Source of the DNA: Candidatus Eiseniibacteriota bacterium
GTDB taxonomy: Bacteria > Eisenbacteria > RBG-16-71-46 > CAZAMP01
Reading direction: 5' to 3'
NCBI GenBank assembly: GCA_965224245.1
Contig: OZ245046.1
Coordinates: 5,920,001 to 5,984,000 of the forward strand
Length of the DNA stretch: 64,000 bases
The first letter of the stretch is position 1. Every line of letters begins with the position of its first letter. The notes under the pieces are model-generated. The model was not told the origin of the DNA. It saw only the letters and a list, made by a program, of their open reading frames with translations, and ran no database searches. Position numbers and translations under genes: made by a program. Positions 67-43,830 of this stretch are shown here, piece after piece.

Positions 67-939
67 GTGAGCAGAACGGTTCGATGCGGGCTCATCCAGT
101 GCGCGAACCCGATCAACGACGAGAGCGTCCCCGTCGACGAGATCAAGCGGGCCGCGTTCGAGAAGCACCTGCCCTTCATCGAGAAGGCGGGCGCCGACGG
201 CGTGAGGATCCTGTGCATGCAGGAGATCTTCGACGGGCCGTACTTCTGCCCCAGCCAGGACGGGCGCTGGTACGACGCGGCCGAGTCGGTCCCCGGTCCC
301 ACGACCGAGCGGCTGGCGGCCCTGGCCAGGCAGCACGAGATGGTGCTGGTGGTCCCGATCTACGAGCGCGAGCAGGCCGGCGTCTACTACAACACGGCGG
401 CGGTGATCGACGCCGACGGCACGTACCTCGGCAAGTACCGGAAGAACCACATCCCGCAGATCGCCGGCTTCTGGGAGAAGTTCTTCTTCAAGCCGGGGAA
501 CCTCGGGTATCCGGTGTTCGAGACCGCGTACGCGAAGGTCGGCGTGTACATCTGCTACGACCGGCACTTTCCCGAGGGCGCGCGCCTGCTGGGCCTGAAC
601 GGCGCGGAGATCGTGTTCAACCCGTCGGCCACGGTCGCGGGCCTCTCGCAGTACCTGTGGAAGCTCGAGCAGCCGGCGCACGCGGTGGCCAACGGCTACT
701 TCATGGGGTGCATCAACCGCGTCGGCAACGAGGGTCCCTGGAACATCGGCAAGTTCTACGGATCGAGCTACTTCGTGGACCCGCGCGGGCAGTTCCTGGT
801 CGAGGCGTCAGAGGACCGGGACGAGCTCGTGGTGGCGGATCTCGATCTGGACATGATCGAGGAGGTGCGGCGGACCTGGCAGTTCTACCGGGATCGCCGC
901 CCCGAGACGTACCGGCCGATGACGGAGCTCCTGCCGTAG
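67..939 (+). CDS. Beta-ureidopropionase (nitrilase/carbon-nitrogen hydrolase family)
   Basis: Nitrilase triad E (MQEIF), K (YRKNHIP), C (ICYDRHFPE); GGAGG RBS before GTG; clustered with hydA and preTA. Confidence 0.9.
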   Translation: MSRTVRCGLIQCANPINDESVPVDEIKRAAFEKHLPFIEKAGADGVRILCMQEIFDGPYFCPSQDGRWYDAAESVPGPTTERLAALARQHEMVLVVPIYEREQAGVYYNTAAVIDADGTYLGKYRKNHIPQIAGFWEKFFFKPGNLGYPVFETAYAKVGVYICYDRHFPEGARLLGLNGAEIVFNPSATVAGLSQYLWKLEQPAHAVANGYFMGCINRVGNEGPWNIGKFYGSSYFVDPRGQFLVEASEDRDELVVADLDLDMIEEVRRTWQFYRDRRPETYRPMTELLP

Positions 940-32242: not shown

Positions 32243-35032
32243 GTGAAGACCTCAGTCCGCCATGTCGCCACGCGCGCGCACACGTCCGCGCGCCGGGCCG
32301 TTGCGCCCGTGTTCGCCGCCCTCTCGCTCGTGCTCGCCTGCGCTCCGGCCGAGGAGCCGGTCGCCGTCGAACTGCCCGATGAGGACTTCGTCGCCGAGAC
32401 CACGCTCGAGAACGGGCTCCGGGTTCTCGTGGCCGAGGTGCCCGGAAGCGGGATGTTCGCGTCCAACGTGTTCATCCGCGCCGGCGCGATGCGCGAGACG
32501 CCGGAGCTGAGCGGGGCCGCGCACTTCCTCGAGCACCTTCTCTTCAATGGCACGACCTCGCGCACGCAGGAGGAGCTCTACGACGACGTGGATCGGATCG
32601 GCGGCTACAACAACGCGTCCACCCGGCCGGACTACGCGGTGTTCATGTTCGTGGCCGGCACCGATGTGATCGCCGACGCGCTCGACATCCAGTCCGACAT
32701 GCTCTTCCGATCGACGCTGCCGCCCGCGAAGTTCGAGAAGGAGCGCGGCATCGTGCTGGAGGAGATCGCGAAGGACCGCTCGAATCCCTCGTACGCGGCC
32801 TCCCTGGTGACCGACGAGATCCTGTACGCGGGCACGCCGTACGCCCGTCCCGTGCTCGGGACAGAGGCGTCCATCAAGGGGCTCTCGTACGACGGAGTCG
32901 AGGCGTACTACCACCGGTACTACGTGCCGTCGAACATGACGCTCCTCTTGATGGGCGATCTCCCTCGCGAGGAGCTCCTGGCCCAGGCGCGGACGACGTT
33001 CGGGGCGGTCGAGGCCGACGCGCATCCGGAGGCCCCCCAGCCCCTGCCGCCGCTGGCGGAGACCCGGATCGTGGCCCGCAAGGTGGACGACACCACGAAC
33101 CGGGTCACGGTGCGCCTTCCGGCGCCCGGCCCGGGGGACGACGCGTTCGCCGCGGTGGAGCTCCTGACCGACATCGTCGCGTCCGGCGACGGCTCACGGA
33201 TCCGTCGGGCCATGGACGCCGACCCCGCAGTCGGCGTGCAGGGTGTGGGAGGCGGTCTCGTCCACGTGGGCGGTCGGACGTTTCTGGACGTCTCGATCGA
33301 GCTGAGCGATCCCGGGATGATCGAGCCCGCGGTCGCGCGCGTGCTCGGCGAGCTCCATCGCGTTCGCGACGGCGGGGTGACCGCGGCCGAGCTGGCGGCG
33401 GCCAAGGTGTCGCGTCGCACCGAAGAGGCGTCGCTCCGCGAGCAGATCCACTACTACGGGTTCATGCGCGGCGACCTCGTGCGCACGGCGCCCGAGGGCT
33501 ATCTGAACTCGCAGCGGAGCCGCTACGCCGCGCTGACCACGGCCGACGTGGCCGGGGCCGCGCGCGCGTGGCTGGCCGCGCCGGTGGTGGAGGTCGTGGC
33601 CACCGGACCGGAGGTGGCCGAACGCGACGAGGCCGTCACCGCCGAGGCGCTGGGCTTCGCCACGCCGCCGGTGACGATCGAGATCTCCGACGGCGAGGTG
33701 GCCGCTGCCCCGCGCGTGCCTCCGCGCGCGAGCGAGGCGTCGGGGCCGACGATGACGACGCTCGAGGGCGGGCTTCGCCTGGTGACGGTGTCGAATCCGG
33801 CGTCGGACGTCCTGGCCGTGCACGTGATGGCGCTCGGTCGGTCCTACCTCGAGCCCGAGGGAAAGGACGGCATCACCGACTTTCTGCACCGCCTCCTGAC
33901 CCGCGGCGCGGGTGAGCTCTCGAAGCACGAGCTGGCCACGCGCCTCGACGCGATCGGGGCCACGATCAAGACGCACGACGCGGGCTTCATCCCGTACGAC
34001 GACTACTACACGACGCCCGAGTTCTCCTACGTGCGCATGGGCGCGCTGGACGAGTTCCACGAGGAGGCGTTCGCCCTGCTCGGCGACATGATCGCCCGGC
34101 CGCGGCTCACGGCCGACGAGATCGAGCAGGCCCGGTCCGAGCTCCTGGCGCAGGCGGAGAAGGACGCGCGCTCCCCGAACACGATCGCGTCCCGGGCGTT
34201 TCGCCGGGCGCTGTGGGGCGATGACGATCGCGGGGCCCGGCCGATCGGGGGCACCGCCGAGACGATCGCGTCGATCACCCGCGAGGATCTCGTGGCCCAT
34301 CACGCGCGCGTGATGGCACCGTCGAACCTCGTGGTGACCGTGGTCACCGGGATGCCGAGCGACGTCGTCGAGTCGGCCGTGTCGTCCTGGTTCGACGGGA
34401 CCGGCGGAGCCGGGGCGGGTGCTGGTGGGGCGTCGGGGGACCCCGGCACGCCGTGGTCGCGTGAGACGAGCACGCGTCCCCCGGTGGGTGGCGAGCCCAC
34501 GACGGTTCGGCTGGCCGTGGATGCCCAGCAGAGCTCGATCTACCTCGGGTACGCGATGCAGGTGGCCCCGGACGATTTCCCGGCGCTCCGCGTGGCCACG
34601 ATGCTGTTGTCGGATCGGATGGCGTTTCAGCTCCGGGAGCGCCAGGGGCTGGCCTACTCGATCGGGGCGTCCCTGACCACGTGGAAGGACCGGGGCGTCC
34701 TCACCGCGCGCATGGGCACGCGCGCCGACAACGTGGATCTCGCCCTGCGCGGGATGGCGGCCCAGCTGGATTCGCTGGCGGTGACTCCGGAGGACGACGC
34801 CAAGGTGGCGCTCGCGGTGAACGCGCGCATCGGGCGCACGCGGATGCGCGGGATCACACGGATGGGTCAGGCGTACGCGCTGGCGATGGACGTCCTGATG
34901 GATCGGGAGCTGGGCACGCGCACGGAGCGTCTGATGAGTCTGGACGAGGTGAGCGCGGACGACGTGAGGCGGGTGGCGGAGACGTACGTCGCATCGGATC
35001 GAGCCGACCGGGTCATCGTGACCCCGGAGTAG
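32243..35032 (+). CDS. M16 family zinc peptidase (pitrilysin-like), probable lipoprotein
   Basis: Inverted zinc motif HFLEH, NAST, KERGIVLEE, YYVPSN, LRERQGLAY; lipobox-like VLAC. Confidence 0.92.
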   Translation: MKTSVRHVATRAHTSARRAVAPVFAALSLVLACAPAEEPVAVELPDEDFVAETTLENGLRVLVAEVPGSGMFASNVFIRAGAMRETPELSGAAHFLEHLLFNGTTSRTQEELYDDVDRIGGYNNASTRPDYAVFMFVAGTDVIADALDIQSDMLFRSTLPPAKFEKERGIVLEEIAKDRSNPSYAASLVTDEILYAGTPYARPVLGTEASIKGLSYDGVEAYYHRYYVPSNMTLLLMGDLPREELLAQARTTFGAVEADAHPEAPQPLPPLAETRIVARKVDDTTNRVTVRLPAPGPGDDAFAAVELLTDIVASGDGSRIRRAMDADPAVGVQGVGGGLVHVGGRTFLDVSIELSDPGMIEPAVARVLGELHRVRDGGVTAAELAAAKVSRRTEEASLREQIHYYGFMRGDLVRTAPEGYLNSQRSRYAALTTADVAGAARAWLAAPVVEVVATGPEVAERDEAVTAEALGFATPPVTIEISDGEVAAAPRVPPRASEASGPTMTTLEGGLRLVTVSNPASDVLAVHVMALGRSYLEPEGKDGITDFLHRLLTRGAGELSKHELATRLDAIGATIKTHDAGFIPYDDYYTTPEFSYVRMGALDEFHEEAFALLGDMIARPRLTADEIEQARSELLAQAEKDARSPNTIASRAFRRALWGDDDRGARPIGGTAETIASITREDLVAHHARVMAPSNLVVTVVTGMPSDVVESAVSSWFDGTGGAGAGAGGASGDPGTPWSRETSTRPPVGGEPTTVRLAVDAQQSSIYLGYAMQVAPDDFPALRVATMLLSDRMAFQLRERQGLAYSIGASLTTWKDRGVLTARMGTRADNVDLALRGMAAQLDSLAVTPEDDAKVALAVNARIGRTRMRGITRMGQAYALAMDVLMDRELGTRTERLMSLDEVSADDVRRVAETYVASDRADRVIVTPE

Positions 35033-35104
35033 CAAGCGCGCGAACGGCGGTGGCGAGCGCGAGCCCGCGGCCCGCGTCGCCACCAGCCTGGATGCGCGGA
35101 ACGA

Positions 35105-35602
35105 CTATCCTTCCGCGTAAACGCCCTCCATCATCGCGACCATCTCGCGCCACATCATCTCCATCTTCGCGATCTCCGCCTGCACGGCCGGATCCTCGGA
35201 CGTCACGGCCATGATGTCGCCCATCGAGGTGTTGCCCATGTGCATGGTCCCGCCGGCGGCCATGATGTTGCGGAATGCCTGACATCGCGTGCAGAGGTGC
35301 GCGGCCGCGTCGGCGTCGGACATCTTCATCGCCTCCATGCCCGCCGCCTCCATCTCGGCGCCGACCGCGTGGTACTCCTTCACGAGGTCCGCCGAGTCGA
35401 CGGTGCAGACGACCGCCATGCCGTCGTTGAGCGTGACCACCTCCGACGAGACGTGCGGACCGAGCGTCTCCATGTGCGGGACCATGTGGCTGCACACGGC
35501 GCACTTCTGCATCTCGGCCATCATGCCTTCCATGGTCGGCCCCGCCTGTGCGGAGACCGAGACCACGAGCGCGGTCGCGAGGAGTGCAACAATCCTTTTC
35601 AT
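35105..35602 (-). CDS. Secreted Met-rich small protein with two CxxC motifs
   Basis: GGAGG RBS, signal peptide ending SAQA, 23 Met in 165 aa, CAVC and CTRC. Confidence 0.75.
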   Translation of the reverse strand: MKRIVALLATALVVSVSAQAGPTMEGMMAEMQKCAVCSHMVPHMETLGPHVSSEVVTLNDGMAVVCTVDSADLVKEYHAVGAEMEAAGMEAMKMSDADAAAHLCTRCQAFRNIMAAGGTMHMGNTSMGDIMAVTSEDPAVQAEIAKMEMMWREMVAMMEGVYAEG

Positions 35603-36064
35603 CGGCGTCCTCCGGTTGACGTCCTGAAACCGTTTGTGACCCGCCACGCTCGCCGAGCGGGTGTGTACGGTGTGCAATCGATAGCACGGGCGGGCGCGCT
35701 CGTCACACGGGAACGTCCAGTATCTCGGGAGTCGAATATGCAGAGACCTGCAGGTCGTGATCTCCTGCGCGACCGTTGAGGCGGCATCGGGCGAGTCCCG
35801 AGGCCGGCTTCTCGCCCGCCGCCGGTCATCCAGCGATCGATCTCCCCGCCCACATCCGTGAGCACCGCTGACCGTGCCAGGGAGACCACGCACGAATGAT
35901 CTTCTACTCATTTTCAGATTCATAGTATTCTAATTTCGGATGTCGACGGTAGAGGGCCGGACGATCTGGCCACGATGCCGGGACGCTCCGCGGGCGGCCG
36001 CCATCGCCTAGCCGTGGCCGACCCGAAGTCGAGCCGTTGCCATGCCTGCGGAGGGGGAGTTCGG

Positions 36065-37063
36065 ATGAAGCTGGGGATCGTCGTTGCCACGCTGATCATG
36101 ATGGGCGGCCAGCCGTGCCTGGCCGGAACCGATCGCGTTCCTGGGCGCGAGTTCACGGCGCACACCCGGTCGTACGCGGACCTCACCGAGCATCTCGACT
36201 TTCGGCTGCTCCTGGCACACTGGCGATCGGAGCTGCCCGATCGCATGGGAACCAATCGCGATGATCTCCTGCTGGCGAGTCCCTTCCTCCGATGGCGCGC
36301 ACGACAGGACCTGCTGTCCCACATCCGGCGACAGCCCGGAGCGAGCCGGGACGATGCCTGGCTGAGGCGAGCACACGAGCTCGCGGAATGGACGTTCACG
36401 GCCATCCGGATCGCATCGCGTCCGATCTACGCCGACGGCCGGACGATCGACTGGGCGGCGCGATACCCCGATGGCTGGCCCCTCGTGATCGGTCCCCAGG
36501 AAATGTACGACCTGGTCGAGATCGAGGACGTTTTCCGGAGCGCCCGGAGGGACTGGATCGAGAGGTTCGAGCACGAGGGAGAGCTCCCCGCCGGAACCGC
36601 CGATCTCGTGACCTCGGCCAGAACCGACGACGAGATCCGGCGAGGGTTCGCGGCCCTCATGGCCGCCGAGTTCACGTTCACTGCACACGTTCGATCCTAC
36701 GAAGGCCTTCGGTCCTACGTGATCGCGATCGGCGACTCCACGCTGACGAACGCGCAGCGCTGGAAGAATCGACTCGGAGCCCTCGAGCTCGCGTGGGCCG
36801 CGCACCGCTACCCGATCCGGCGCGATCGGATCGGTGAGAAGCGCATCACCGCACGCGATCTGCCCTGGATCCTCCGCGCGATCGAGCTCGTGAAGTGGAA
36901 ACGTCTCCGGATCTCCGACGATCCGGTGGATGCGGTCTGGGCGTCGACCGTGGTGCTCGGCCCTCAGGAGATCGCCGATCTCGATGAGATCGAGCGCGTG
37001 TTCACGGCCGAGGAGGAGGAGATGAAGTGCCCGGAGTCCAGCGCCAATCGACCATGCCCATGA
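36065..37063 (+). CDS. Secreted hypothetical protein A with two copies of an unrecognised repeat domain
   Basis: GGGGAG RBS before ATG 36065; signal peptide; FTAH.RSY..L / W..RA.EL..W / GPQE..DL.EIE.VF each occur twice. Confidence 0.75.
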   Translation: MKLGIVVATLIMMGGQPCLAGTDRVPGREFTAHTRSYADLTEHLDFRLLLAHWRSELPDRMGTNRDDLLLASPFLRWRARQDLLSHIRRQPGASRDDAWLRRAHELAEWTFTAIRIASRPIYADGRTIDWAARYPDGWPLVIGPQEMYDLVEIEDVFRSARRDWIERFEHEGELPAGTADLVTSARTDDEIRRGFAALMAAEFTFTAHVRSYEGLRSYVIAIGDSTLTNAQRWKNRLGALELAWAAHRYPIRRDRIGEKRITARDLPWILRAIELVKWKRLRISDDPVDAVWASTVVLGPQEIADLDEIERVFTAEEEEMKCPESSANRPCP

Positions 37064-37072
37064 TGGAGCACC

Positions 37073-38149
37073 GTGCTCGTGAAGACTGACACACCATCAC
37101 TCTCGAGGAGAAGTCGCAGGTGCGTCGCAGGGATTACGGTGATTGTCATCGGGGGGATCCTCTCGGTTCAAGCCCCGGTCTTGGGAGCCGACCTCGGCCT
37201 GTTCCCGGACGGGACCTTCACGCCACACTCCCGTCCCTATGAAGACCTTGCCCCGTTCGCGGACTATCAGCTGGCCGCGGATGCGCTGTCGTCCGCGTGG
37301 ACGCATTGCGCACTGGGTGAGCGTCTCGACGAGCTGTTCCTGACCGATCCGATCGTCTGCTGCCGCAGTCGCCGGACACTGCTGGCCATGGTGCAGCTGC
37401 CCGAGGGCTCCGAGAACCGTGACTGGATCAAGCGAGCGCACGAGCTCCTTTCGTGGATGTGCACCACGGTAGGCGTCGCGACACGGCCGCGACACGACGG
37501 AGCCAGCGCGATCGATTGGGGTCGCTTCCCCGGGGATTGGCCCGCCTCGATCGAGCCGCAGGATCTGTTCGATCTCCTGGAGATCGAGCGGGCGATGGAC
37601 GCCGCGAAGTGGGCCTGGGTCGACGAGAGCGAGGCGTCGGGGACTCTCCCGGCAGGTACGCGATACATGCTCGACACGGCCCGTGATGACGAAGAGATCC
37701 GTCGAGGGCTCGCCGTGCTTCTCGCCCGCGACTTTCGGTTCACCCCGCACACACGTCCGTATGCGGACATCGCTGACTACGTGTCGGTCGAGGGTTGCGA
37801 ATGGGACCAAACGGAAACACAACGGTGGAGCCGACGCCTCTCCGCGTTGATGCGCGCTCGAGCCGTCCCTCGCTTCCCGTTTCTTGCGCAGTTCGCGCCC
37901 GCGGCGAAGCTCCTCGCGCCGGAGGACCAGAGCTGGATGGACCGAGCAGTCGAGCTCGTCACGTGGCAGGGGATGCAACTCACAAATGATCCGGTCAGTG
38001 AGATCTGGATCGAGATGGTCACGCTGGGTCCGGGTGAGTCTCACGATCTCGATGTGATCGAACAAGTCTTCACAGCAGCTGAATCGATTCAACGCAATGC
38101 CTCGAATGGCTCTAGCCATACGAATCTCCGCTCTTCTTCTCATGACTAA
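37073..38149 (+). CDS. Secreted hypothetical protein B, paralogue of protein A
   Basis: Colinear with A (G.LPAGT, AR.D.EIRRG, FTPH.RPY, RA.EL..W); GGAG before GTG. Confidence 0.75.
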   Translation: MLVKTDTPSLSRRSRRCVAGITVIVIGGILSVQAPVLGADLGLFPDGTFTPHSRPYEDLAPFADYQLAADALSSAWTHCALGERLDELFLTDPIVCCRSRRTLLAMVQLPEGSENRDWIKRAHELLSWMCTTVGVATRPRHDGASAIDWGRFPGDWPASIEPQDLFDLLEIERAMDAAKWAWVDESEASGTLPAGTRYMLDTARDDEEIRRGLAVLLARDFRFTPHTRPYADIADYVSVEGCEWDQTETQRWSRRLSALMRARAVPRFPFLAQFAPAAKLLAPEDQSWMDRAVELVTWQGMQLTNDPVSEIWIEMVTLGPGESHDLDVIEQVFTAAESIQRNASNGSSHTNLRSSSHD

Positions 38150-38151
38150 GG

Positions 38152-40941
38152 ATGACAGACATGAAGACAGGTCATCTCGTTGCAACTTTGGGGTTCATCA
38201 CTTCGCTCGGATTCGCCAGGTCTTCCGACGCCGACATCGGGGTGGGCATTGCAGGGTATGAGGTTGACTATGTACGGCTGGACGAGCAGGAGTCCAGCTG
38301 CGTGGCCGGATGCGATCAGTGCGTACCCGAGACGATCTCCTCGTTCTCGGGAGTGACGGCATGTGGGCCAGGCTATCCCTGCGGATTTCTTGGAGATTGC
38401 CGAGCGTGCAATGGCTTATGTAGCAGGTCGTTGTCATTCGAGAAGCGTGACGGTGGCTTGTCTGTGCCCACGTGGGGGATCTTCTTCGTGCACAGCCCCG
38501 ACGACTTCGACGGAAACCTCGAGGCCTGCAGGCAACGCGTGCTCGACGTGTACTGCACCGCTGGGGTAATCCCCATCCACGGTGCATACAAGAAGTTCCT
38601 GGATCTGGAAGTCGACGCAATCCCCGGCGATGGAGCGGAATCGTACGCCGACCTGGGCCGGGATCCCCTCTTCATGGGAGAGGCCGCGACACAGGAACCG
38701 CTCTCGGGCGCTTTCGCAACCGCCATGCAGCAGCGAATGGGGGTCCTTGCAAAGATCGTTCGCGACCTCGGGGTGCCGGCGCGTCGAGCAGATCCCGGGA
38801 CACTGGAGTACTACGAGCGTGCATTGACGATTTGCTGTTGGGCGTGGGTGAACGACTGGAGTCCGTATGGGAGCATTACGCCAACGGACATTGGCTTTGA
38901 GTCTGATCTCCCGTCTCAGGCAGCACGTCGACAGATTCGTGAAATCCTCGTGGCGACGTGCGGCGATCCTCTCTTCGGCGACTGCGACGCGATCCCATCC
39001 GACGACGACCCCGCGGCCAGCGTCGGCGGCTTCGACGTGGCCGACGACGAGACCGCGCGCTTCTCCGTGCTCGACGAGTACGACACCGCCGGCTACGTCC
39101 TCCGCGGCGTCGGCGACGCCGGGGAGACCCTGCACGAGGTCGACGTCCCCGCCGGCGTCGGACGCCGCGTCGTCGATCTCGAGGGACTCGAGGCCCCGAT
39201 CTGGACGCTCCACGAAATCGAAGGGAACGGAGACGAGCGCCTCGTCGACCGCGTGACGCCCCAGCCGCTCGTGTCGCCGCCGCCGGCCGACCCGCTCGAC
39301 GCGACGCGACTGCGGACCCGGGTCGACTCGCTCCTCACGCTGCACCTCCAGACGTGGGGGCACACCGAGCCCAGCCCCGCCGAGCGCGTGGCCGTTTATG
39401 CCCGGCAGTCGCTCACCGCCGATCTCGAGGCGTTCTACGCCGCGTTCTGGGAGTCTCCACCCTGGGGCTACGACGTCGACGTGGTCCCGGTCGAGCCATT
39501 CGGCTCCGTGGTGCCCTTCGAGGATCCGATCGCATTCCGAGAAGCGTTGGGAGACGACATCGCCGCACGCTACGCCGCGGGCACGCGCCACTTCATGCTC
39601 GTCGGCGACGCCAACGATCACGTCGCGTTCGCGCAGTCGGGCGAGCGCCACGACGAGACCTGGGGCGTGGGGGAGTGGCCGTCGATCTGGGCGGGCCAGG
39701 TGGCGGCCGGCGCATCGCCGGACGGTCAGCCCGAGCGCGACGTCATCCCGATGTGGCTCGTGCCCGATACGGCGCCGCGGGGCGAGGGCCTCGCCTGGGT
39801 CAGCCCATACTTCATGAGCGACGCCCCGTATCGCCCGGCCGACGATGCGGTCCTGACGCGTCTGCCGGTCGTCACCAGCGAGGAGCTCCTCGCGTGGCTG
39901 TACAAGGAGCTCGTGGTCGCCGATCGCTTCCTCGCGGTCGGAAACGACTCGCGTCCGAGCCGGGTCACGCTGCTGGTCGGGGACCGCAATCACGGAGACC
40001 CCGACGAGCACGAGTGGGCCCGACAGATCGGTGACGACGTGGAGACGAGTCTCGCCGCAGAGGAGGTCGTGCGGCTGAACGAACGCGACTTCCCGGCCAC
40101 GTGCGATCGGACGACCGCGCTCCTGACCGACTGGAACTACGCTCGGCCCGAGCTCGTCGTGATCCCGGCCGCGACTCTGAGCAACCGGTACTTCCCGGGC
40201 AACTTCATGAGCACGCTCGACGAGACGTGCCCGTTCGGCGTCTCGCTGCTGGAGCCGTACGTGCTGCCGCCGCTCTTCCTCCAGACCTGCGACGTCGGCG
40301 ACCTCGCACGCACCGAGCAGACGCTGGAGGGCACGCCCGGCGGCACGATCCTCTCCCCGGTGACCGAGCAGATGCTGCTCGCCGATCCCGAGCGGGGCAC
40401 CGTGTTCGCATGGGGGCCCACGGCCGGCACGGTGCAGAGCCAGACCGAGATCCTGGCGCCGCTCGTGGTCGGCGAGCTCTTTGCCGGCGATCGATCCCGG
40501 ACGATCGCCGAGGTGGGGACCGCCGCCCTCGCCGGGTACACGGCCGAGCACGGCGCCGATCCGCTCACCGCTCGCGTGGCCTCGTCCATCGTGATGCTCG
40601 GGAGCCCGCTCACCCACTTCGCGTTCGACGAGGCGCTGACCGCGGGCACGCCGGACGGCGGCGTCGGGCCGCGCCGCATGCGGGTCGCGCCGAATCCGTT
40701 CAATCCCCGGGTACGCATTCGCGTGCACGTTCCCGCCGACGGTCGCGGCCGGCTGACCCTCTTCGACGCCGCCGGTCGCGAGGTCCGCTCGTTCGTCGCC
40801 GACGGCGCTCACCCGGGATCCAATCAGTTCGTGTGGGACGGGCTGGATCACGCGGGGCGCCGCGTGCCGTCCGGACGCTATTTCGCCCGATGGAAGACCA
40901 CCTCGGGATCGGAGACCGAGACGATCGTTCTGATCAGATGA
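38152..40941 (+). CDS. Secreted multidomain protein: Cys-rich N-terminus, gingipain (C25)-like domain, FlgD/T9SS-like CTD
   Basis: MLVGD, SDAPY, RLPV, QTCDVG, MLGSP resemble C25 motifs; C-terminal PNPFNP...FDAAGREV...WDGLD..G..VPSGRYF. Confidence 0.65.
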   Translation: MTDMKTGHLVATLGFITSLGFARSSDADIGVGIAGYEVDYVRLDEQESSCVAGCDQCVPETISSFSGVTACGPGYPCGFLGDCRACNGLCSRSLSFEKRDGGLSVPTWGIFFVHSPDDFDGNLEACRQRVLDVYCTAGVIPIHGAYKKFLDLEVDAIPGDGAESYADLGRDPLFMGEAATQEPLSGAFATAMQQRMGVLAKIVRDLGVPARRADPGTLEYYERALTICCWAWVNDWSPYGSITPTDIGFESDLPSQAARRQIREILVATCGDPLFGDCDAIPSDDDPAASVGGFDVADDETARFSVLDEYDTAGYVLRGVGDAGETLHEVDVPAGVGRRVVDLEGLEAPIWTLHEIEGNGDERLVDRVTPQPLVSPPPADPLDATRLRTRVDSLLTLHLQTWGHTEPSPAERVAVYARQSLTADLEAFYAAFWESPPWGYDVDVVPVEPFGSVVPFEDPIAFREALGDDIAARYAAGTRHFMLVGDANDHVAFAQSGERHDETWGVGEWPSIWAGQVAAGASPDGQPERDVIPMWLVPDTAPRGEGLAWVSPYFMSDAPYRPADDAVLTRLPVVTSEELLAWLYKELVVADRFLAVGNDSRPSRVTLLVGDRNHGDPDEHEWARQIGDDVETSLAAEEVVRLNERDFPATCDRTTALLTDWNYARPELVVIPAATLSNRYFPGNFMSTLDETCPFGVSLLEPYVLPPLFLQTCDVGDLARTEQTLEGTPGGTILSPVTEQMLLADPERGTVFAWGPTAGTVQSQTEILAPLVVGELFAGDRSRTIAEVGTAALAGYTAEHGADPLTARVASSIVMLGSPLTHFAFDEALTAGTPDGGVGPRRMRVAPNPFNPRVRIRVHVPADGRGRLTLFDAAGREVRSFVADGAHPGSNQFVWDGLDHAGRRVPSGRYFARWKTTSGSETETIVLIR

Positions 40942-41279
40942 AGGAGACGACCATGACGGGAACGATGACGGAAACGACGATGGCGGGTACGTCGATGACG
41001 AAGGCGAGAACGGCGAAGGCCACGATGACGAAGGCGATGACGAGAGCGACGATGCGATGGGTGTCGTGTCTCGTGGTGCTGCTCGTGCTCGGCGCGTGCG
41101 ACTCGAGCCCGACCGAGCCGGCGCTTCGGTTCGAGCGCTGGGACCCGGACAACGAGCACCACGTCGAGGCCAAGCCGGACCGTCCGATCCGCGTGTGCAC
41201 GCAGGCCCAGATTCGCGAGTGCTACGCCGGCGGGACGAACGAGTGCTGCCCGGAAGAGGAGCCACCGAAGGACCGCTGA
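40938..41279 (+). CDS. Small Cys-containing lipoprotein with repetitive Met/Thr N-terminal extension
   Basis: ATGA overlap with the upstream gene; lipobox LGAC; C-terminal C-x8-C-x7-CC. The true start could be any in-frame ATG up to 41052. Confidence 0.6.
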   Translation: MKETTMTGTMTETTMAGTSMTKARTAKATMTKAMTRATMRWVSCLVVLLVLGACDSSPTEPALRFERWDPDNEHHVEAKPDRPIRVCTQAQIRECYAGGTNECCPEEEPPKDR

Positions 41280-41321
41280 CGGGTCTCCCGCTCGGGCACG
41301 CGCCGCCCGACGGGGGCCGCG

Positions 41322-42530
41322 CTAGCGTCCCTGTCTGTCTCGCAGGAGAACGTCCGGCCCCCGGAAGTTCGCCAGGTAGACGACTCTCTGATCCCCCAGC
41401 GTCAGGACCTCGACGTCGATGACGTCCACCGCGAGATCGGCCGGCACGAACCCCGAGCTCCGATCCTCCAGCCGTCCCGATCCGTCGTTCACGAGCACGC
41501 GGACCGGGCCGCCGAACGCGTTCCCGATCACGAGGTCGAGGTCCCCGTCCCGGTCCAGGTCGGCGAAGTCACCGTCCACCGAGTGCTCCTCGAGCACGGG
41601 GAGGTGCGTGGCCGAGACGTCCGTGAACACGCCCGACCCGTCGTTCAGGAGCAGCCGGTTCGCGTTCTCGGAGCCGCCCTGGAAGTCGACGTTCGCGAAG
41701 AAGAGGTCGAGATCGCCGTCGCCGTCGACGTCGCCGAGGTCCGCCTCGCGGGTCTCCTCGCGCACCCCGGATGGAACGGGGAGGCGCGCGGACGACTCGT
41801 CCGTGAAGTGCCCCCCGCCGCGATCGATCAGGATCCGGTTGTCGTCCTCGTTCGCGACCACGAGGTCCAGATCCCCGTCCGCGTCGAGATCACCGAGCTC
41901 CAGATCCTGCGTGACGTCGATGCGGTGGGGGAGGCGGTCGGCCGTCTCGTCCGCGAAGCGGCCGGTGCCGTCGTTGACGAGGAGCACGTTCTGGCCGGCG
42001 TTCCCGAGGATCAGGTCCAGGTCGCCGTCGGCGTCGAGGTCGGCGGCGACGACGGCGTTGGTGGTCCCCGCCGCCGGGAGCCGGTCGCTCGCGTTCTCGA
42101 AGTGCGCCGTGCCGTCGTTCAGGTAGTACTCGTTCCGCTGGTTGTCCTCGGTGACGAACACGACGTCGACGTCTCCGTCGCCGTCGAAGTCCGCGAGCGC
42201 GATGTCCTCCGAGTCGAGGTTCTCGTCGGGCAGACGATCGCTGGCATCCACGAAGCGGCCGGTGCCGTCGTTCAACATGAGAATGTTGGGTGCCCATTCG
42301 TTGGCGCCCACGAGATCCAGATCGCCGTCCGCGTCGAGATCGGCGGCCTCGACGTCCATGGTCCGGCCGCCCAGGGCGGTGAGGGGGAGTCGGTCGGCGG
42401 ACACGTCGGTCCACGCCGTCGCCGCCTCGTGCTCGTGGGTCGGCGCCGGCGCTCCGTCGGTCTCGCTCGCCTCGGCTCCGGCGCCGGTGCTGACGAGCAC
42501 CAGCACCGCGACGAGATCATGAACGCGCAT
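41322..42530 (-). CDS. Secreted FG-GAP/VCBS repeat protein
   Basis: Six DxDxDGDxD Ca-binding blades with N.G.G.F.D; GAGGAGG RBS; signal peptide. Confidence 0.9.
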   Translation of the reverse strand: MRVHDLVAVLVLVSTGAGAEASETDGAPAPTHEHEAATAWTDVSADRLPLTALGGRTMDVEAADLDADGDLDLVGANEWAPNILMLNDGTGRFVDASDRLPDENLDSEDIALADFDGDGDVDVVFVTEDNQRNEYYLNDGTAHFENASDRLPAAGTTNAVVAADLDADGDLDLILGNAGQNVLLVNDGTGRFADETADRLPHRIDVTQDLELGDLDADGDLDLVVANEDDNRILIDRGGGHFTDESSARLPVPSGVREETREADLGDVDGDGDLDLFFANVDFQGGSENANRLLLNDGSGVFTDVSATHLPVLEEHSVDGDFADLDRDGDLDLVIGNAFGGPVRVLVNDGSGRLEDRSSGFVPADLAVDVIDVEVLTLGDQRVVYLANFRGPDVLLRDRQGR

Positions 42531-43830
42531 CCGCACCTCCTCGCGTGATCGCCTCGGCCATCGCTTCGACCATGATCCGGTTTCCCTCCCCGTTGAAGTG
42601 ACAGCAGGTGTCCACGTACAGCGTCGCGTTCGACCCCGAGAACACGCCGCTGAGGTCGTGGAACTCGACGCCCTCGGCCATCAGGCGTTGCCCCGCCTCC
42701 CGGAGGAGCGGATACCCGGCCTCGACCGCCGGCTTGTAGGGGCTCTCGACGTCGAACGCGAGCGCCTCCTCGTCGGACGACAGGGGCTTCGAGCCCGGGT
42801 CGTACTGGTTCGGCTGAAGCACGTGGACGTACCGGATGCCGTGTGCCTCGCAGATTGCATGCAGCTGCATCGAGCATCGCTCCCAGACCGCCACGCACTC
42901 GGGCACGAGCTCCTCGGCCGGCAGGTGCATCCGCGCGGACGAGCGGATGAACCACGGGACCTCGTCTCCGGAGAGATCCTGCAGCGCCCAGGCGTACTCG
43001 GAGATCCGGCGCTCGAGCTCCCGGTCGTCGGCTCGCCGGATCAGCTTCGCGATCGGGGAGAACGACCAGAAGGACCGGTGAAACCGCTCGAGCCTCACCG
43101 CGCGCTCGTCCTTCAGATACGCGATCGCGCCGAGCGCGTTGCGCACACGCGCATCGGGAACGTCCAGCGCGACCATGCTCCAGTTCATCGGGAAGAGCGG
43201 GTGAAGGCCCTGGGGGGCGTTCAGCACCGCCGGCACCGCCACCTCGTTGAAGCCGTCGAGGTTGATCACCAGGTCGAACTCGCCGCCCTGAGCCAGCACG
43301 TACGCCAGCTGAATGACCTGCTGCGGCTGGTGATAGCCGGGCATCCCCAGCCACACGAAGTCCAGCTCCAGATCCTCGAAGCCGGGCTGCCGCCCGAGCG
43401 CATCGGCCAGGAGCCGGGTGTGCCACGTCCCGAGCTGCCCGGCCACGGAGCCTCCGGTGACCCCGACCACGAGCCGTCCCTCGGCGCGCTCTCGCAGCGC
43501 GGGCTTCGCGTCGAGGAAGCCGTCCTCGCTGACCGGGATCGCCGCCGGCCCCGGCGTCTCCCGCTCCTCGTTCGGCCAGAAGACGTAGCCGAGATAGGGA
43601 TGGAGCGCCATCGACGGGTCCCGGAAGCCGAGCCCCGCCCGCTCGCGTCCCGGCTTCATGTCGGGGGTGCCGAGCGAGTCGGTGAGACTGTCGGCCGGTG
43701 CGGGCGTCTCGTCGGTGGACCGCGAGGGGAGCGGCACCTCCGGCCGGTAGAGGAGCTGGACGCTCGTTTCGAGAAGGACGTACGCGGCGAGCAGCACCGC
43801 GATCGCCAGGCCGATCCCCTTCGTGGACAT
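42517..43830 (-). CDS. Membrane-anchored SGNH/GDSL hydrolase-like protein
   Basis: GGSVA (block I), LDGFNE (block III), DTCCH (block V); N-terminal TM segment; GGAGG RBS. Confidence 0.65.
   Translation of the reverse strand: MSTKGIGLAIAVLLAAYVLLETSVQLLYRPEVPLPSRSTDETPAPADSLTDSLGTPDMKPGRERAGLGFRDPSMALHPYLGYVFWPNEERETPGPAAIPVSEDGFLDAKPALRERAEGRLVVGVTGGSVAGQLGTWHTRLLADALGRQPGFEDLELDFVWLGMPGYHQPQQVIQLAYVLAQGGEFDLVINLDGFNEVAVPAVLNAPQGLHPLFPMNWSMVALDVPDARVRNALGAIAYLKDERAVRLERFHRSFWSFSPIAKLIRRADDRELERRISEYAWALQDLSGDEVPWFIRSSARMHLPAEELVPECVAVWERCSMQLHAICEAHGIRYVHVLQPNQYDPGSKPLSSDEEALAFDVESPYKPAVEAGYPLLREAGQRLMAEGVEFHDLSGVFSGSNATLYVDTCCHFNGEGNRIMVEAMAEAITRGGADARS

What the first reader, a model, noticed from the sequence alone, without database searches (positions are those of the whole stretch)
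36065..41279. Candidate new system: repeat-domain proteins plus a C25-like secreted protein carrying a fifth copy of the domain, plus a lipoprotein
Seen: a tightly packed four-gene unit (gaps of 9 nt, 2 nt and an ATGA overlap). The N-terminal part of the 929-aa protein has SYADL (38641), RMGVL, YYERALTICCW and QIREIL, in the same order and similar spacing as SY(A/E)(D/G)L, RL(G/S)AL, W..RA.EL..W and EIERVF in A/B. That segment follows a Cys-rich region and precedes an Ig linker, a gingipain-like domain and a FlgD/T9SS CTD. Inference: a secreted effector/protease with cognate partner proteins (chaperones, inhibitors/immunity or co-assembling subunits) that share its domain.
Basis: partly seen in the sequence, partly recalled or inferred. 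Interest (0 to 1): 0.8.

Follow-up and report, generated by a model that had tools for sequence, protein, structure and literature searches.

The report
New helical domain shared in T9SS-cargo operon
In one Candidatus Eisenbacteria genome, two exported proteins built from a previously undescribed helical domain sit next to a large secreted gingipain-like protein whose head carries a distant fifth copy of that domain, but what the domain does is still unknown.

Summary
A (36065-37063), B (37073-38149), C (38152-40941) and D (to 41279) form one tightly packed plus-strand unit between opposite-strand genes. A and B are paralogs (39% identity), each with two copies of a ~125-aa domain.

C alone does not match that domain significantly. 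However, C's first ~290 residues have stand-alone homologs in three other Eisenbacteria genomes. A profile including them matches the A/B unit at hhalign probability 93%, E 2.8e-7, score 52. In 200 column shuffles the highest score was 19.9.

The unit models confidently as five helices (pLDDT 90) and has no convincing PDB, Pfam or NCBIfam match.

C's body is a divergent Peptidase_C25 domain. It keeps the Cys motif but apparently lacks the canonical His. Its tail is a T9SS-type CTD, one of about 340 in a genome that encodes PorU and SprA.

A, B and C's head share low GC3 (0.71-0.82), against 0.91 for C's body and neighbours. C is therefore a mosaic.

Physical partnership is untested. The full four-gene arrangement was found only in this genome, and one looser pairing occurs in genome G005.

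I rate this moderately interesting: a new variant of a known kind.

The parts
36065..37063 (+). Gene A, 332 aa. It has an N-terminal signal-like segment, two copies of the new helical unit (36137-36559 and 36659-37030), and no CTD.
   Evidence: No Pfam, NCBIfam or PADLOC hit. GC3 is 0.817.
37073..38149 (+). Gene B, 358 aa with a GTG start, paralog of A. It has an N-terminal SRRSRR motif plus a hydrophobic segment (Sec or possibly Tat, read by eye), two units (37193-37627 and 37721-38098), and no CTD.
   Evidence: GC3 is 0.735.
38152..39036 (+). Head (N-domain) of C, residues 1-295: a signal-like segment and a Cys-rich half (GCDQC...CGP...C...C..CNG.C).
   Evidence: Stand-alone homologs of 276-313 aa occur in 3 other Eisenbacteria genomes. 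GC3 is 0.705. The AlphaFold model failed, pLDDT 33.5.
38623..38955 (+). The 'fifth copy': C residues 158-268, remotely homologous to the A/B helical unit.
   Evidence: hhalign probability 93.3, E 2.8e-7. Shuffle and reversal controls; robustness tests. MAFFT aligns all 10 sequences with Y, R, RA and W invariant.
39019..39264 (+). It is shared with the G006 homologs, which align from C residue 281.
   Evidence: Fold not tested. The GC3 step to about 0.9 begins here.
39265..40671 (+). Divergent Peptidase_C25-like body, residues 372-840. The Cys motif QTC(713)DVGD is kept; SNRY (677-680) sits where the canonical His is expected.
   Evidence: A paralog at 43% identity lies elsewhere in the genome. 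GC3 is 0.91.
40672..40941 (+). FlgD_ig / T9SS type-A-like C-terminal sorting domain of C.
   Evidence: Pfam FlgD_ig scores 33.3 bits against a cut-off of 27. TIGR04183 scores 18.1, below its cut-off of 23. tblastn finds 340 copies in the genome at E<=0.01.
40938..41279 (+). Gene D, a small Cys-rich putative lipoprotein (LVLGAC lipobox). Possible starts are 40938 (ATGA overlap), 40953 (after AAGGAG) or 41055.
   Evidence: No family hit. In the phylum, apart from D itself in G000, only three marginal hits at E 0.006-0.009 in 206 genomes.

Best explanation
This is a lineage-specific operon for one type IX secretion (T9SS) cargo in a Candidatus Eisenbacteria genome.

Shown:
- C is a mosaic protein. 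From N to C it has a signal-like segment, a ~265-aa head (a Cys-rich half plus one degenerate copy of a new five-helix domain), a ~85-aa linker, a divergent C25-like body and a T9SS-type CTD.
- A and B are exported paralogs made of two copies each of the same helical domain. They have no CTD.
- A, B and the head share low GC3, unlike the body and the flanking genes. The A-B-head segment therefore has one history, and it was joined to a copy of a resident C25-like cargo scaffold.

Inferred:
- The body keeps its Cys but not the canonical His, and relatives carry unrelated heads on the same body. It therefore acts mainly as a carrier or display scaffold that takes the head through the T9SS for PorU processing, not as a classical gingipain.
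- The helical domain is a non-enzymatic binding module.
- A and B lack a CTD, so they stay in the periplasm. There they work with the head through the shared domain, either by pairing with it (escort or co-assembly) or by handling the same ligand.
- D is an accessory lipoprotein.

My odds: architecture and shared ancestry about 0.85; functional coupling of A/B with C's head about 0.55; direct A/B-head binding about 0.3.
For: Domain sharing:
- hhalign probability 93.3, E 2.8e-7.
- 0 of 200 column shuffles reached the observed score of 52.0; their maximum was 19.9.
- The result holds without C in the alignment (93.6), and with the A/B units alone (93.4).
- With the head HMM, which contains no A or B, B is the best non-self hit and A is fifth of the non-self hits among 44177 six-frame ORFs, both at the expected profile positions. 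Neither hit is significant on its own (E 1.0 and 2.6).

Fold: the unit models at pLDDT 90, pTM 0.85, with five helices.

Head as an independent module: stand-alone homologs exist in 3 of 3 genomes of family f12, giving 4 of 206 phylum genomes with a match including G000.

Mosaic origin:
- GC3 is 0.817 (A), 0.735 (B) and 0.705 (head), against 0.91 for the body and 0.905-0.92 for four flanking genes.
- The step lies at codons ~276-300. Homology to the G006 bodies begins there, at residue 281-284.
- Contigs from 3 of 3 runs of one sample bridge the junction.

T9SS:
- PorU scores 469.6 bits against a cut-off of 420.
- SprA scores 540 bits summed against a cut-off of 200.
- A PorV-like gene lies next to PorU, below its cut-off.
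- The genome holds 340 CTD copies.

C25 body:
- P0010 and 5 of 5 Eisenbacteria homologs pass Pfam PF01364.
- The body profile's only PDB hit is gingipain RgpB, E 0.024.

Variable heads on the same body.

Operon packing.
Against: - C alone does not match the unit significantly, so its membership rests on transitivity through three sequences from one family.
- C's own copy lacks the H and R of the H-x-R-x-Y motif and the DL of the last helix.
- No binding evidence exists.
- The full arrangement was seen in one genome only. None of 4 other C25-like cargo loci has head-sharing neighbours, and the f12 head homologs stand without unit proteins.
- The periplasmic location of A and B is inferred only from the absence of a CTD.
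- The loss of the catalytic His rests on spacing and on gingipain residue numbers I recalled, not on a residue-level alignment.
- C itself fails the Pfam C25 threshold and the TIGR04183 threshold.
Confidence: 0.4

Rival explanations
1. Ligand relay. The helical domain binds a small or polymeric ligand. C displays one copy at the cell surface and A/B carry four copies in the periplasm. The proteins work in series or in parallel on the same ligand without binding each other. This is analogous to NEAT-domain proteins of the Isd haem relay (an analogy from my own knowledge).
For: - Polar residues are conserved across the family: Y, two R, and H and D in most members.
- Single-unit secreted proteins exist on their own: P0012, P0013 and P0015.
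- The head also exists alone with a different C-terminal motif.
Against: - No ligand, transporter or TonB-type receptor gene was identified in the unit.
- C's copy has lost the H and R of the H-x-R-x-Y motif.
- The fold search gives no ligand-binding relative.
Confidence: 0.22
2. No functional coupling. The cluster is an evolutionary by-product: duplicated, diverging paralogs that arrived together. The shared domain says nothing about partnership.
For: - A and B are tandem duplicates.
- The common low GC3 is equally explained by co-arrival.
- The arrangement is unique to this genome.
- All four products are orphans or nearly so.
Against: - Gaps of 9 nt and 2 nt and one strand imply co-transcription.
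- The head and the A/B units diverged long ago (17-21% identity), yet they are adjacent.
- A second unit protein sits next to a head-like gene in G005.
Confidence: 0.2
3. Effector and immunity, or effector and inhibitor. C's head is a toxic or enzymatic effector delivered by the T9SS on a C25-like carrier. A/B, or the downstream lipoprotein D, protect the producer.
For: - Heads vary on a conserved body, as in polymorphic effectors. Two relatives carry a Cys/His-containing head (YNCH...NHS).
- A small orphan lipoprotein lies immediately downstream.
Against: - By general knowledge, immunity proteins are not normally homologous to the domain they neutralise.
- No toxin or defence family hit was found.
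- The f12 head homologs have no adjacent A/B- or D-like gene.
Confidence: 0.1
4. The resemblance between C and the A/B unit is convergent or due to chance (helical periodicity and composition), not homology.
For: - Single-sequence tests are non-significant.
- The profiles are shallow, 6 and 4 sequences.
- The head model failed.
Against: - The observed score of 52.0 compares with a maximum of 19.9 in 200 column shuffles and 9.4 for the reversed alignment.
- The match is collinear over 106 columns and includes every near-invariant position.
- P0012 plus P0013 alone still reach E 2.2e-4.
- B and A rank at the top of 44177 ORFs with the head HMM.
Confidence: 0.06

Closest known systems
Gingipain-adhesin assemblies of Porphyromonas gingivalis (RgpA/Kgp with HagA). 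The comparison is from my own knowledge.
   Same: A C25-family T9SS cargo carries a copy of a domain that is repeated in separate proteins encoded by the same organism. The cargo has an N-terminal signal and a C-terminal CTD that is handled by PorU (T9SS background read in passages of PMC11285876).
   Different: - The shared domain here is a new five-helix unit, not the cleaved-adhesin domain; there is no Pfam hit.
- It lies N-terminal to the C25 body.
- The repeat proteins A and B have no CTD.
- The body seems to lack the catalytic His.
- Co-assembly is not shown.
Peptidase_C25 T9SS cargoes of other Eisenbacteria (G006, G175, G181) and metagenomic protein P0010
   Same: They share the linker, C25-like body and FlgD_ig CTD, with 22-35% identity to C's body. 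They have the same SNR/AQR and SC..GDF motifs.
   Different: Their N-terminal heads are unrelated to C's head. None of 4 loci with context has a neighbour sharing its head, a unit or an N-domain hit.
PorU, the C25-family T9SS sortase
   Same: C25 family, with a CTD.
   Different: The genome has a separate true PorU (469.6 bits). C matched the PorU model only over its CTD, at E 0.058.
Stand-alone head homologs in Eisenbacteria family f12 (P0014, L017:8988-9929, L018:9342-10268)
   Same: They have the same Cys-rich half plus unit-like half, at 29-31% identity to C residues 1-295.
   Different: They are 276-313 aa secreted proteins ending in a TWGxIKxxYR motif instead of linker, C25 body and CTD. 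They sit next to a gene that looks selD-like by eye, with no A/B-like genes nearby.

Membership tests
New A/B-type five-helix unit (no database family) | Profile-profile match to the unit alignment across the whole unit | tested here: met
   Units vs head alignment A4: probability 93.3, E 2.8e-7, 106 columns. Controls. The result holds without C in the alignment.
New A/B-type five-helix unit (no database family) | C's own sequence matches the unit HMM or profile | tested here: not met
   Scores of 0.8 and -0.8 bits. hhalign of the units vs C alone gives E 0.28. Membership is by transitivity only.
New A/B-type five-helix unit (no database family) | Near-invariant residues Y, R, R-A, W, P, D-L and I in order | tested here: met
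   Y, R, RA and W are invariant in 10 of 10 sequences. P, D, L and I are present in at least 90%. C lacks the DL, and also lacks the H and R of the H-x-R-x-Y motif.
Peptidase C25 (gingipain/PorU family, Pfam PF01364) | Match to the Pfam model above the gathering score | tested here: not met
   C and its paralog P0005 give no PF01364 hit. However, P0010 and 5 of 5 Eisenbacteria homologs of the body pass, at 55-123 bits against a cut-off of 23. C matches P0010 at E 5.5e-26.
Peptidase C25 (gingipain/PorU family, Pfam PF01364) | Catalytic Cys | tested here: inconclusive
   The motif (S/T)C..GDF is kept in 6 of 7 aligned bodies, including C (C713), and lost in paralog P0005. Equating it with the gingipain Cys rests on spacing and recalled numbering.
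Peptidase C25 (gingipain/PorU family, Pfam PF01364) | Catalytic His about 33 residues before the Cys | tested here: inconclusive
   That seat holds Y, S or D in 7 of 7 aligned bodies and in P0010, next to an invariant R. No residue-level alignment to a solved gingipain covered this region.
T9SS type-A CTD cargo | C-terminal sorting domain model | tested here: inconclusive
   Pfam FlgD_ig scores 33.3 bits, above its cut-off of 27. TIGR04183 scores 18.1, below its cut-off of 23. Paralog P0005 passes TIGR04183 at 26.8. The genome holds 340 similar tails.
T9SS type-A CTD cargo | T9SS machinery encoded in the same genome | tested here: met
   PorU scores 469.6 against 420. SprA scores 540 summed against 200. 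The PorV-like gene scores 92.8, below its cut-off of 250, and lies next to PorU.
Gingipain-type adhesin co-assembly | Shared cleaved-adhesin/haemagglutinin domains | tested here: not met
   No Pfam domain other than FlgD_ig in A, B, C or D.
Known anti-phage defence systems (PADLOC) | Any model hit | tested here: not met
   0 of 6 proteins hit at E<=0.01.

The most novel reading that the evidence does not exclude
A and B are dedicated periplasmic partners of a single T9SS cargo. They recognise its head by pairing their own copies of a new five-helix fold with the homologous copy in the cargo. They either escort it to the translocon or leave the cell with it as co-assembled subunits. This would be a cargo-specific accessory pair for type IX secretion, working by homotypic domain recognition, in a phylum where the T9SS has not been described (no paper held both 'Eisenbacteria' and 'type IX secretion').
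Probability: 0.15. Interest if true: 0.75.

Novelty: new variant of a known kind. Interest (0 to 1): 0.45.

Why it matters
The work defines a helical domain family that has no entry in Pfam, NCBIfam or PADLOC and no convincing PDB match. An exhaustive profile search of 1.84 billion representative proteins found only 4 proteins. The domain occurs both as free exported proteins and as the head of a T9SS cargo.

The locus also shows a conserved C25-like body acting as a carrier for interchangeable heads, and it captures one such fusion with its compositional seam still visible.

It documents a very large T9SS cargo set (about 340 CTDs) together with PorU and SprA in Candidatus Eisenbacteria. Reviews of T9SS distribution do not list this phylum (passage read in PMC11285876).

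If A and B do bind the head, this would be a tractable case of cargo-specific accessory proteins for type IX secretion.

Tried and rejected
- Complex prediction of A (residues 25-332) with C residues 144-290: score 0.25 against a mark of 0.32, no verdict.
- AlphaFold model of the whole head from 4 sequences: pLDDT 33.5, unusable.
- Foldseek against the PDB with the unit model: 0 matches at E<=0.001.
- VIA-align wide search: best Z 5.3 (LidA coiled coil), which is background level for helical models.
- ESM Atlas on A and on the head: no usable hit.
- Word-index homolog searches:
  - A found only itself among 3974 candidates.
  - The 11-row unit alignment against longer proteins found only B and C. 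This is weak evidence against other fusions.
- The search for related loci:
  - Alignment A6 in metagenome contigs: 282 pattern matches, none confirmed. The genomic context of P0012 and P0013 therefore stays unknown.
- Weak unit hits rejected:
  - In G047, G065, G135 and G165 the hits cover only the W..RA.EL..W helix.
  - The G006 hit to A lies antisense to another ORF.
- Homolog searches in the 206 phylum genomes:
  - The G005 head-like protein has none outside G005.
  - D has none beyond chance.
- phmmer of P0010 against the PDB gave no gingipain alignment.
- Promoter and terminator scan of 35000-42000: 0 and 0 sites.
- No RNA holder was listed among public runs.
- My genome-wide GC3 reference was contaminated by non-coding frames, so I did not use it.

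Full report
**Layout.** The window lies at G000:C1:5920001-5984000 of a 6.94-Mb genome with about 70% GC. Four plus-strand ORFs fill 36065-41279:
- A: 36065-37063, 332 aa.
- B: 37073-38149, 358 aa, GTG start.
- C: 38152-40941, 929 aa.
- D: ends at 41279.

The gaps are 9 nt (A to B) and 2 nt (B to C). An ATG at 40938 overlaps C's stop. However, AAGGAG at 40941-40946 precedes a second ATG at 40953, and the lipobox-bearing hydrophobic segment (LVLGAC) starts only at 41055. D's start is therefore uncertain. Minus-strand genes flank the unit on both sides: 35105-35608 and an FG-GAP repeat protein at 41322-42536. A consensus scan found no promoter-like or terminator-like site in 35000-42000.

**A and B.**
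- They are paralogs: 39% identity, E 2e-68.
- Each holds two copies of a unit of about 125-140 aa. A unit 1 vs A unit 2 gives BLASTP E 1.7e-10, A unit 1 vs B unit 2 gives 4.7e-7, and aligned identity is 27-40%. Whole-protein self-BLAST missed the repeat.
- Both begin with signal-like segments, read by eye. B's carries SRRSRR, so a Tat route is possible. Neither has a CTD.
- They have no Pfam, NCBIfam or PADLOC hit.

**How rare the A/B unit is.**
- In the own genome only A and B match each other.
- Among 41 related genomes, 2 matched at E<=0.01: G000 itself and one hit in G006 that lies antisense to another ORF, which I reject.
- An exhaustive HMMER search of 1.84 billion representative proteins with the A+B profile found 4 proteins at E<=0.001. 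These are A, B and two single-unit secreted proteins: P0012 (164 aa, E 2e-7) and P0013 (174 aa, E 4e-4).

**Is there a fifth copy in C?** On C alone the answer is no:
- BLASTP of A or B against C finds nothing.
- A 4-unit HMM scores C at 0.8 bits, with its best pieces at residues 577-592 and 621-647.
- That HMM hit only A and B among 44177 six-frame ORFs of the genome.
- A 6-unit HMM gives -0.8 bits, less than the paralog that lacks the region.

The picture changed with intermediate sequences.
- A search of all 206 genomes of the phylum with C residues 1-840 found a stand-alone secreted ORF in G019 that matches C residues 30-279 (E 3.6e-11).
- A profile search found two more, in G012 and G032. 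In all, 4 of 206 genomes matched including G000, and 3 of 3 genomes of family f12.
- A scan of one genome per species (185,579 species) returned the same three records, titled Candidatus Eisenbacteria.
- These 276-313-aa proteins align with C residues 1-295 end to end, at 29-31% identity, with a shared Cys pattern.

Profile-profile results for the 6-unit alignment:
- Against C plus one homolog: probability 8.7, E 0.0038.
- Against C plus all three: probability 93.3, E 2.8e-7, score 52.0 over 106 columns, mapping unit columns 42-159 onto C residues 158-268.
- Controls: 200 column shuffles gave mean 12.4, sd 2.35, max 19.9; the reversed alignment gave 9.4.
- Three f12 sequences alone: probability 93.6.
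- Four A/B units alone against the head alignment: probability 93.4.
- P0012 plus P0013 alone: probability 45.3, E 2.2e-4.
- C alone: E 0.28 (all).

Two further observations agree with this.
- MAFFT aligns all ten sequences with Y, R, R-A and W invariant and P, D, L, I nearly so.
- With the head HMM, which contains no A or B, the best non-self hit among 44177 ORFs is B (E 1.0). A is fifth of the non-self hits (E 2.6). Both align at the expected profile positions.

It is visible only through intermediates, and C's copy is degenerate: it lacks the H and R of H-x-R-x-Y and the DL of the last helix.

**Fold.**
- The unit (A unit 2, 10-row alignment) models at mean pLDDT 90.0, pTM 0.85, with helices at 14-19, 31-50, 65-85, 89-96 and 102-123.
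- Foldseek found no PDB match at E<=0.001.
- The Foldseek-independent search peaked at Z 5.3, which the tool's own notes place at background for helical models.
- The whole-head model failed at pLDDT 33.5.
- The ESM Atlas gave nothing for A or for the head.

**C's body and tail.**
- Residues 372-840 match a 1529-aa metagenomic protein, P0010 (E 5.5e-26), whose residues 348-718 hit Pfam Peptidase_C25 at E 2.9e-22.
- Five Eisenbacteria homologs (three in G006, one each in G175 and G181) all pass PF01364, at 55-123 bits against a cut-off of 23. C and its in-genome paralog P0005 do not reach the reporting threshold.
- A 7-sequence body profile has one PDB hit, gingipain RgpB, at E 0.024, covering only the first sub-domain.
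- The motif (S/T)C..GDF is kept in 6 of 7 bodies (C713 in C) and lost in P0005. About 33 residues upstream, where I recall the gingipain His to lie, all 7 bodies and P0010 have Y, S or D beside an invariant Arg. This mapping rests on spacing and recalled numbering, so loss of the His is likely but not proven.
- The tail hits Pfam FlgD_ig at 33.3 bits against a cut-off of 27. It misses TIGR04183 at 18.1 against 23. P0005's tail passes TIGR04183 at 26.8.
- tblastn with C's last 90 residues finds 340 places in the genome at E<=0.01, of which 256 are at E<=1e-5.
- The genome encodes PorU (469.6 bits against 420), SprA (540 summed against 200) and a PorV-like gene next to PorU (92.8, below its cut-off of 250).
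- T9SS background comes from passages read in PMC11285876: the CTD is necessary and sufficient for export, PorU removes it and can attach anionic LPS, and the T9SS may exist in several non-Bacteroidota FCB phyla. Eisenbacteria is not among those named.
- No paper in the library holds both 'Eisenbacteria' and 'type IX secretion'.

**Mosaic origin.**

| Segment | GC3 |
|---|---|
| A | 0.817 |
| B | 0.735 |
| C head | 0.705 |
| C body | 0.91 |
| D from 41055 | 0.893 |
| Four flanking genes | 0.905-0.92 |

(Values.)

- In 50-codon windows along C, GC3 is 0.60-0.84 up to window 251-300. It jumps to 0.98 at window 276-325 and stays at 0.80-0.98 thereafter.
- The step coincides with the point where homology to the G006 proteins begins, at residue 281-284.
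- The junction is not an assembly artefact in the data I could see. One contig of run X1 spans the whole stretch with no differences, and contigs of X2 and X3 bridge ~39000. All three runs are from one sample, which may be the assembly's own source. A second sample gave only fragments.
- P0005 (636-aa ORF, 43% identity to C residues 372-916) has no head and no A/B-like neighbour.
- C therefore looks like a copy of a resident cargo scaffold joined to an incoming A-B-head segment.

**Recurrence.**
- The same body carries unrelated heads elsewhere.
- In the 4 such loci with context, no neighbouring ORF of at least 100 aa resembles the head (BLASTP E<=1e-3), and no unit or head HMM hit occurs.
- The f12 head genes lie beside a gene that looks selD-like by eye, with no unit proteins nearby.
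- A 10-row unit profile over the phylum hit 9 of 206 genomes at E<=0.01. I accept G000 (five units), the three f12 heads and G005. I reject four partial hits.
- In G005 a 201-aa single-unit protein, P0015 (E 2.8e-5, full-length match), lies directly after a Cys-rich secreted ORF and two CTD cargo genes.
- That Cys-rich ORF matches the head profile at hhalign probability 78.7, E 1.7e-5, score 42.7 (shuffle maximum 19.6). The score falls to 22.1 when its last 15 residues are removed. It has no other homolog in the phylum.
- This is one suggestive second case of a unit protein beside a head-like protein. It is not an established pattern.

**How it most likely works.**

Shown:
- The shared domain.
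- The export signals.
- The T9SS machinery.
- The mosaic seam.
- The tight packing.

Inferred:
- The C25-like body serves mainly as a carrier that takes interchangeable heads through the T9SS.
- The helical unit is a binding module, not an enzyme. No invariant catalytic-type constellation survives in C's copy, and there is no fold relative.
- A and B, which lack a CTD, remain in the periplasm and act with the head through the shared domain.

I cannot separate direct pairing (escort or co-assembly) from parallel handling of one ligand. Effector-immunity and pure evolutionary accident remain possible. The one complex prediction gave no verdict; it is listed under tried and rejected.

**Verdict.** I class it as a new variant of a known kind: a T9SS C25-like cargo with a new head domain that is also present in adjacent exported proteins. 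Interest is moderate, because the domain is new and the case is clean, but the arrangement is known from one genome and its function is open.

Noticed in passing
Whole genome G000. Also L017:8988-9929, L018:9342-10268, L018:7449-8447, L018:6666-7412 and L045:7437-8621.: A short motif, [ST]WGx[IVL]Kxx[YFW], often preceded by (T/V)P and followed by R, occurs 41 times in the six-frame ORFs of G000. In 35 of the 41 it lies within 5 residues of the C-terminus, mostly on ORFs of roughly 200-500 aa. It also ends the stand-alone head homologs and their neighbours in other Eisenbacteria. It looks like a second, undescribed C-terminal sorting-type signal. In C its place is taken by the linker, C25 body and CTD.
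   Followed up: partly
Genome G000: C1:2571843-2575325 (PorU), C1:2570249-2571205 (PorV-like), C1:2013027-2017832 (SprA): This Candidatus Eisenbacteria genome encodes T9SS core parts above the curated cut-offs and about 340 FlgD_ig-type CTD tails, a very large predicted cargo set. No paper in the library links Eisenbacteria with type IX secretion.
   Followed up: partly
window 38977-39051: GC3 steps abruptly inside gene C, from about 0.7 to about 0.95, at the head/linker junction. This seam marks a fusion.
   Followed up: yes
window 40953-41054: The 5' part of the D reading frame is a run of ACG/ATG-rich codons (MTGTMTETTMAGTSMTKARTAKATMTKAMTRATM) with GC1 of only 0.265 and many in-frame ATGs. 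It is either an unusually long signal n-region or untranslated leader.
   Followed up: no
L011:1180-3693 (G006) and P0010 residues ~60-190: Two C25-like cargoes carry a different head with a conserved T(Y/H)..YNCH...W and NHSA...SKWG pattern. This suggests a Cys/His hydrolase head on the same carrier body. No Pfam hit covers that region.
   Followed up: no
window 35105-35608 (minus strand): Divergently placed upstream of A is a small, signal-bearing, very Met-rich protein with CxxC pairs and many M..M motifs. It has no Pfam family above cut-off and is possibly a metal-binding periplasmic protein.
   Followed up: no
window 32243-35032: A 929-aa secreted protein carries an HFLEH (HxxEH) motif and a repeated two-half layout typical of M16 zinc peptidases. 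This was read by eye and not scanned.
   Followed up: no
L045 (G005:C1) and L046 (G005:C8): The locus with the head-like gene and the unit gene occurs twice in G005 at about 99% identity, once on a 27-kb contig. This is either a recent duplication or an assembly duplicate.
   Followed up: no
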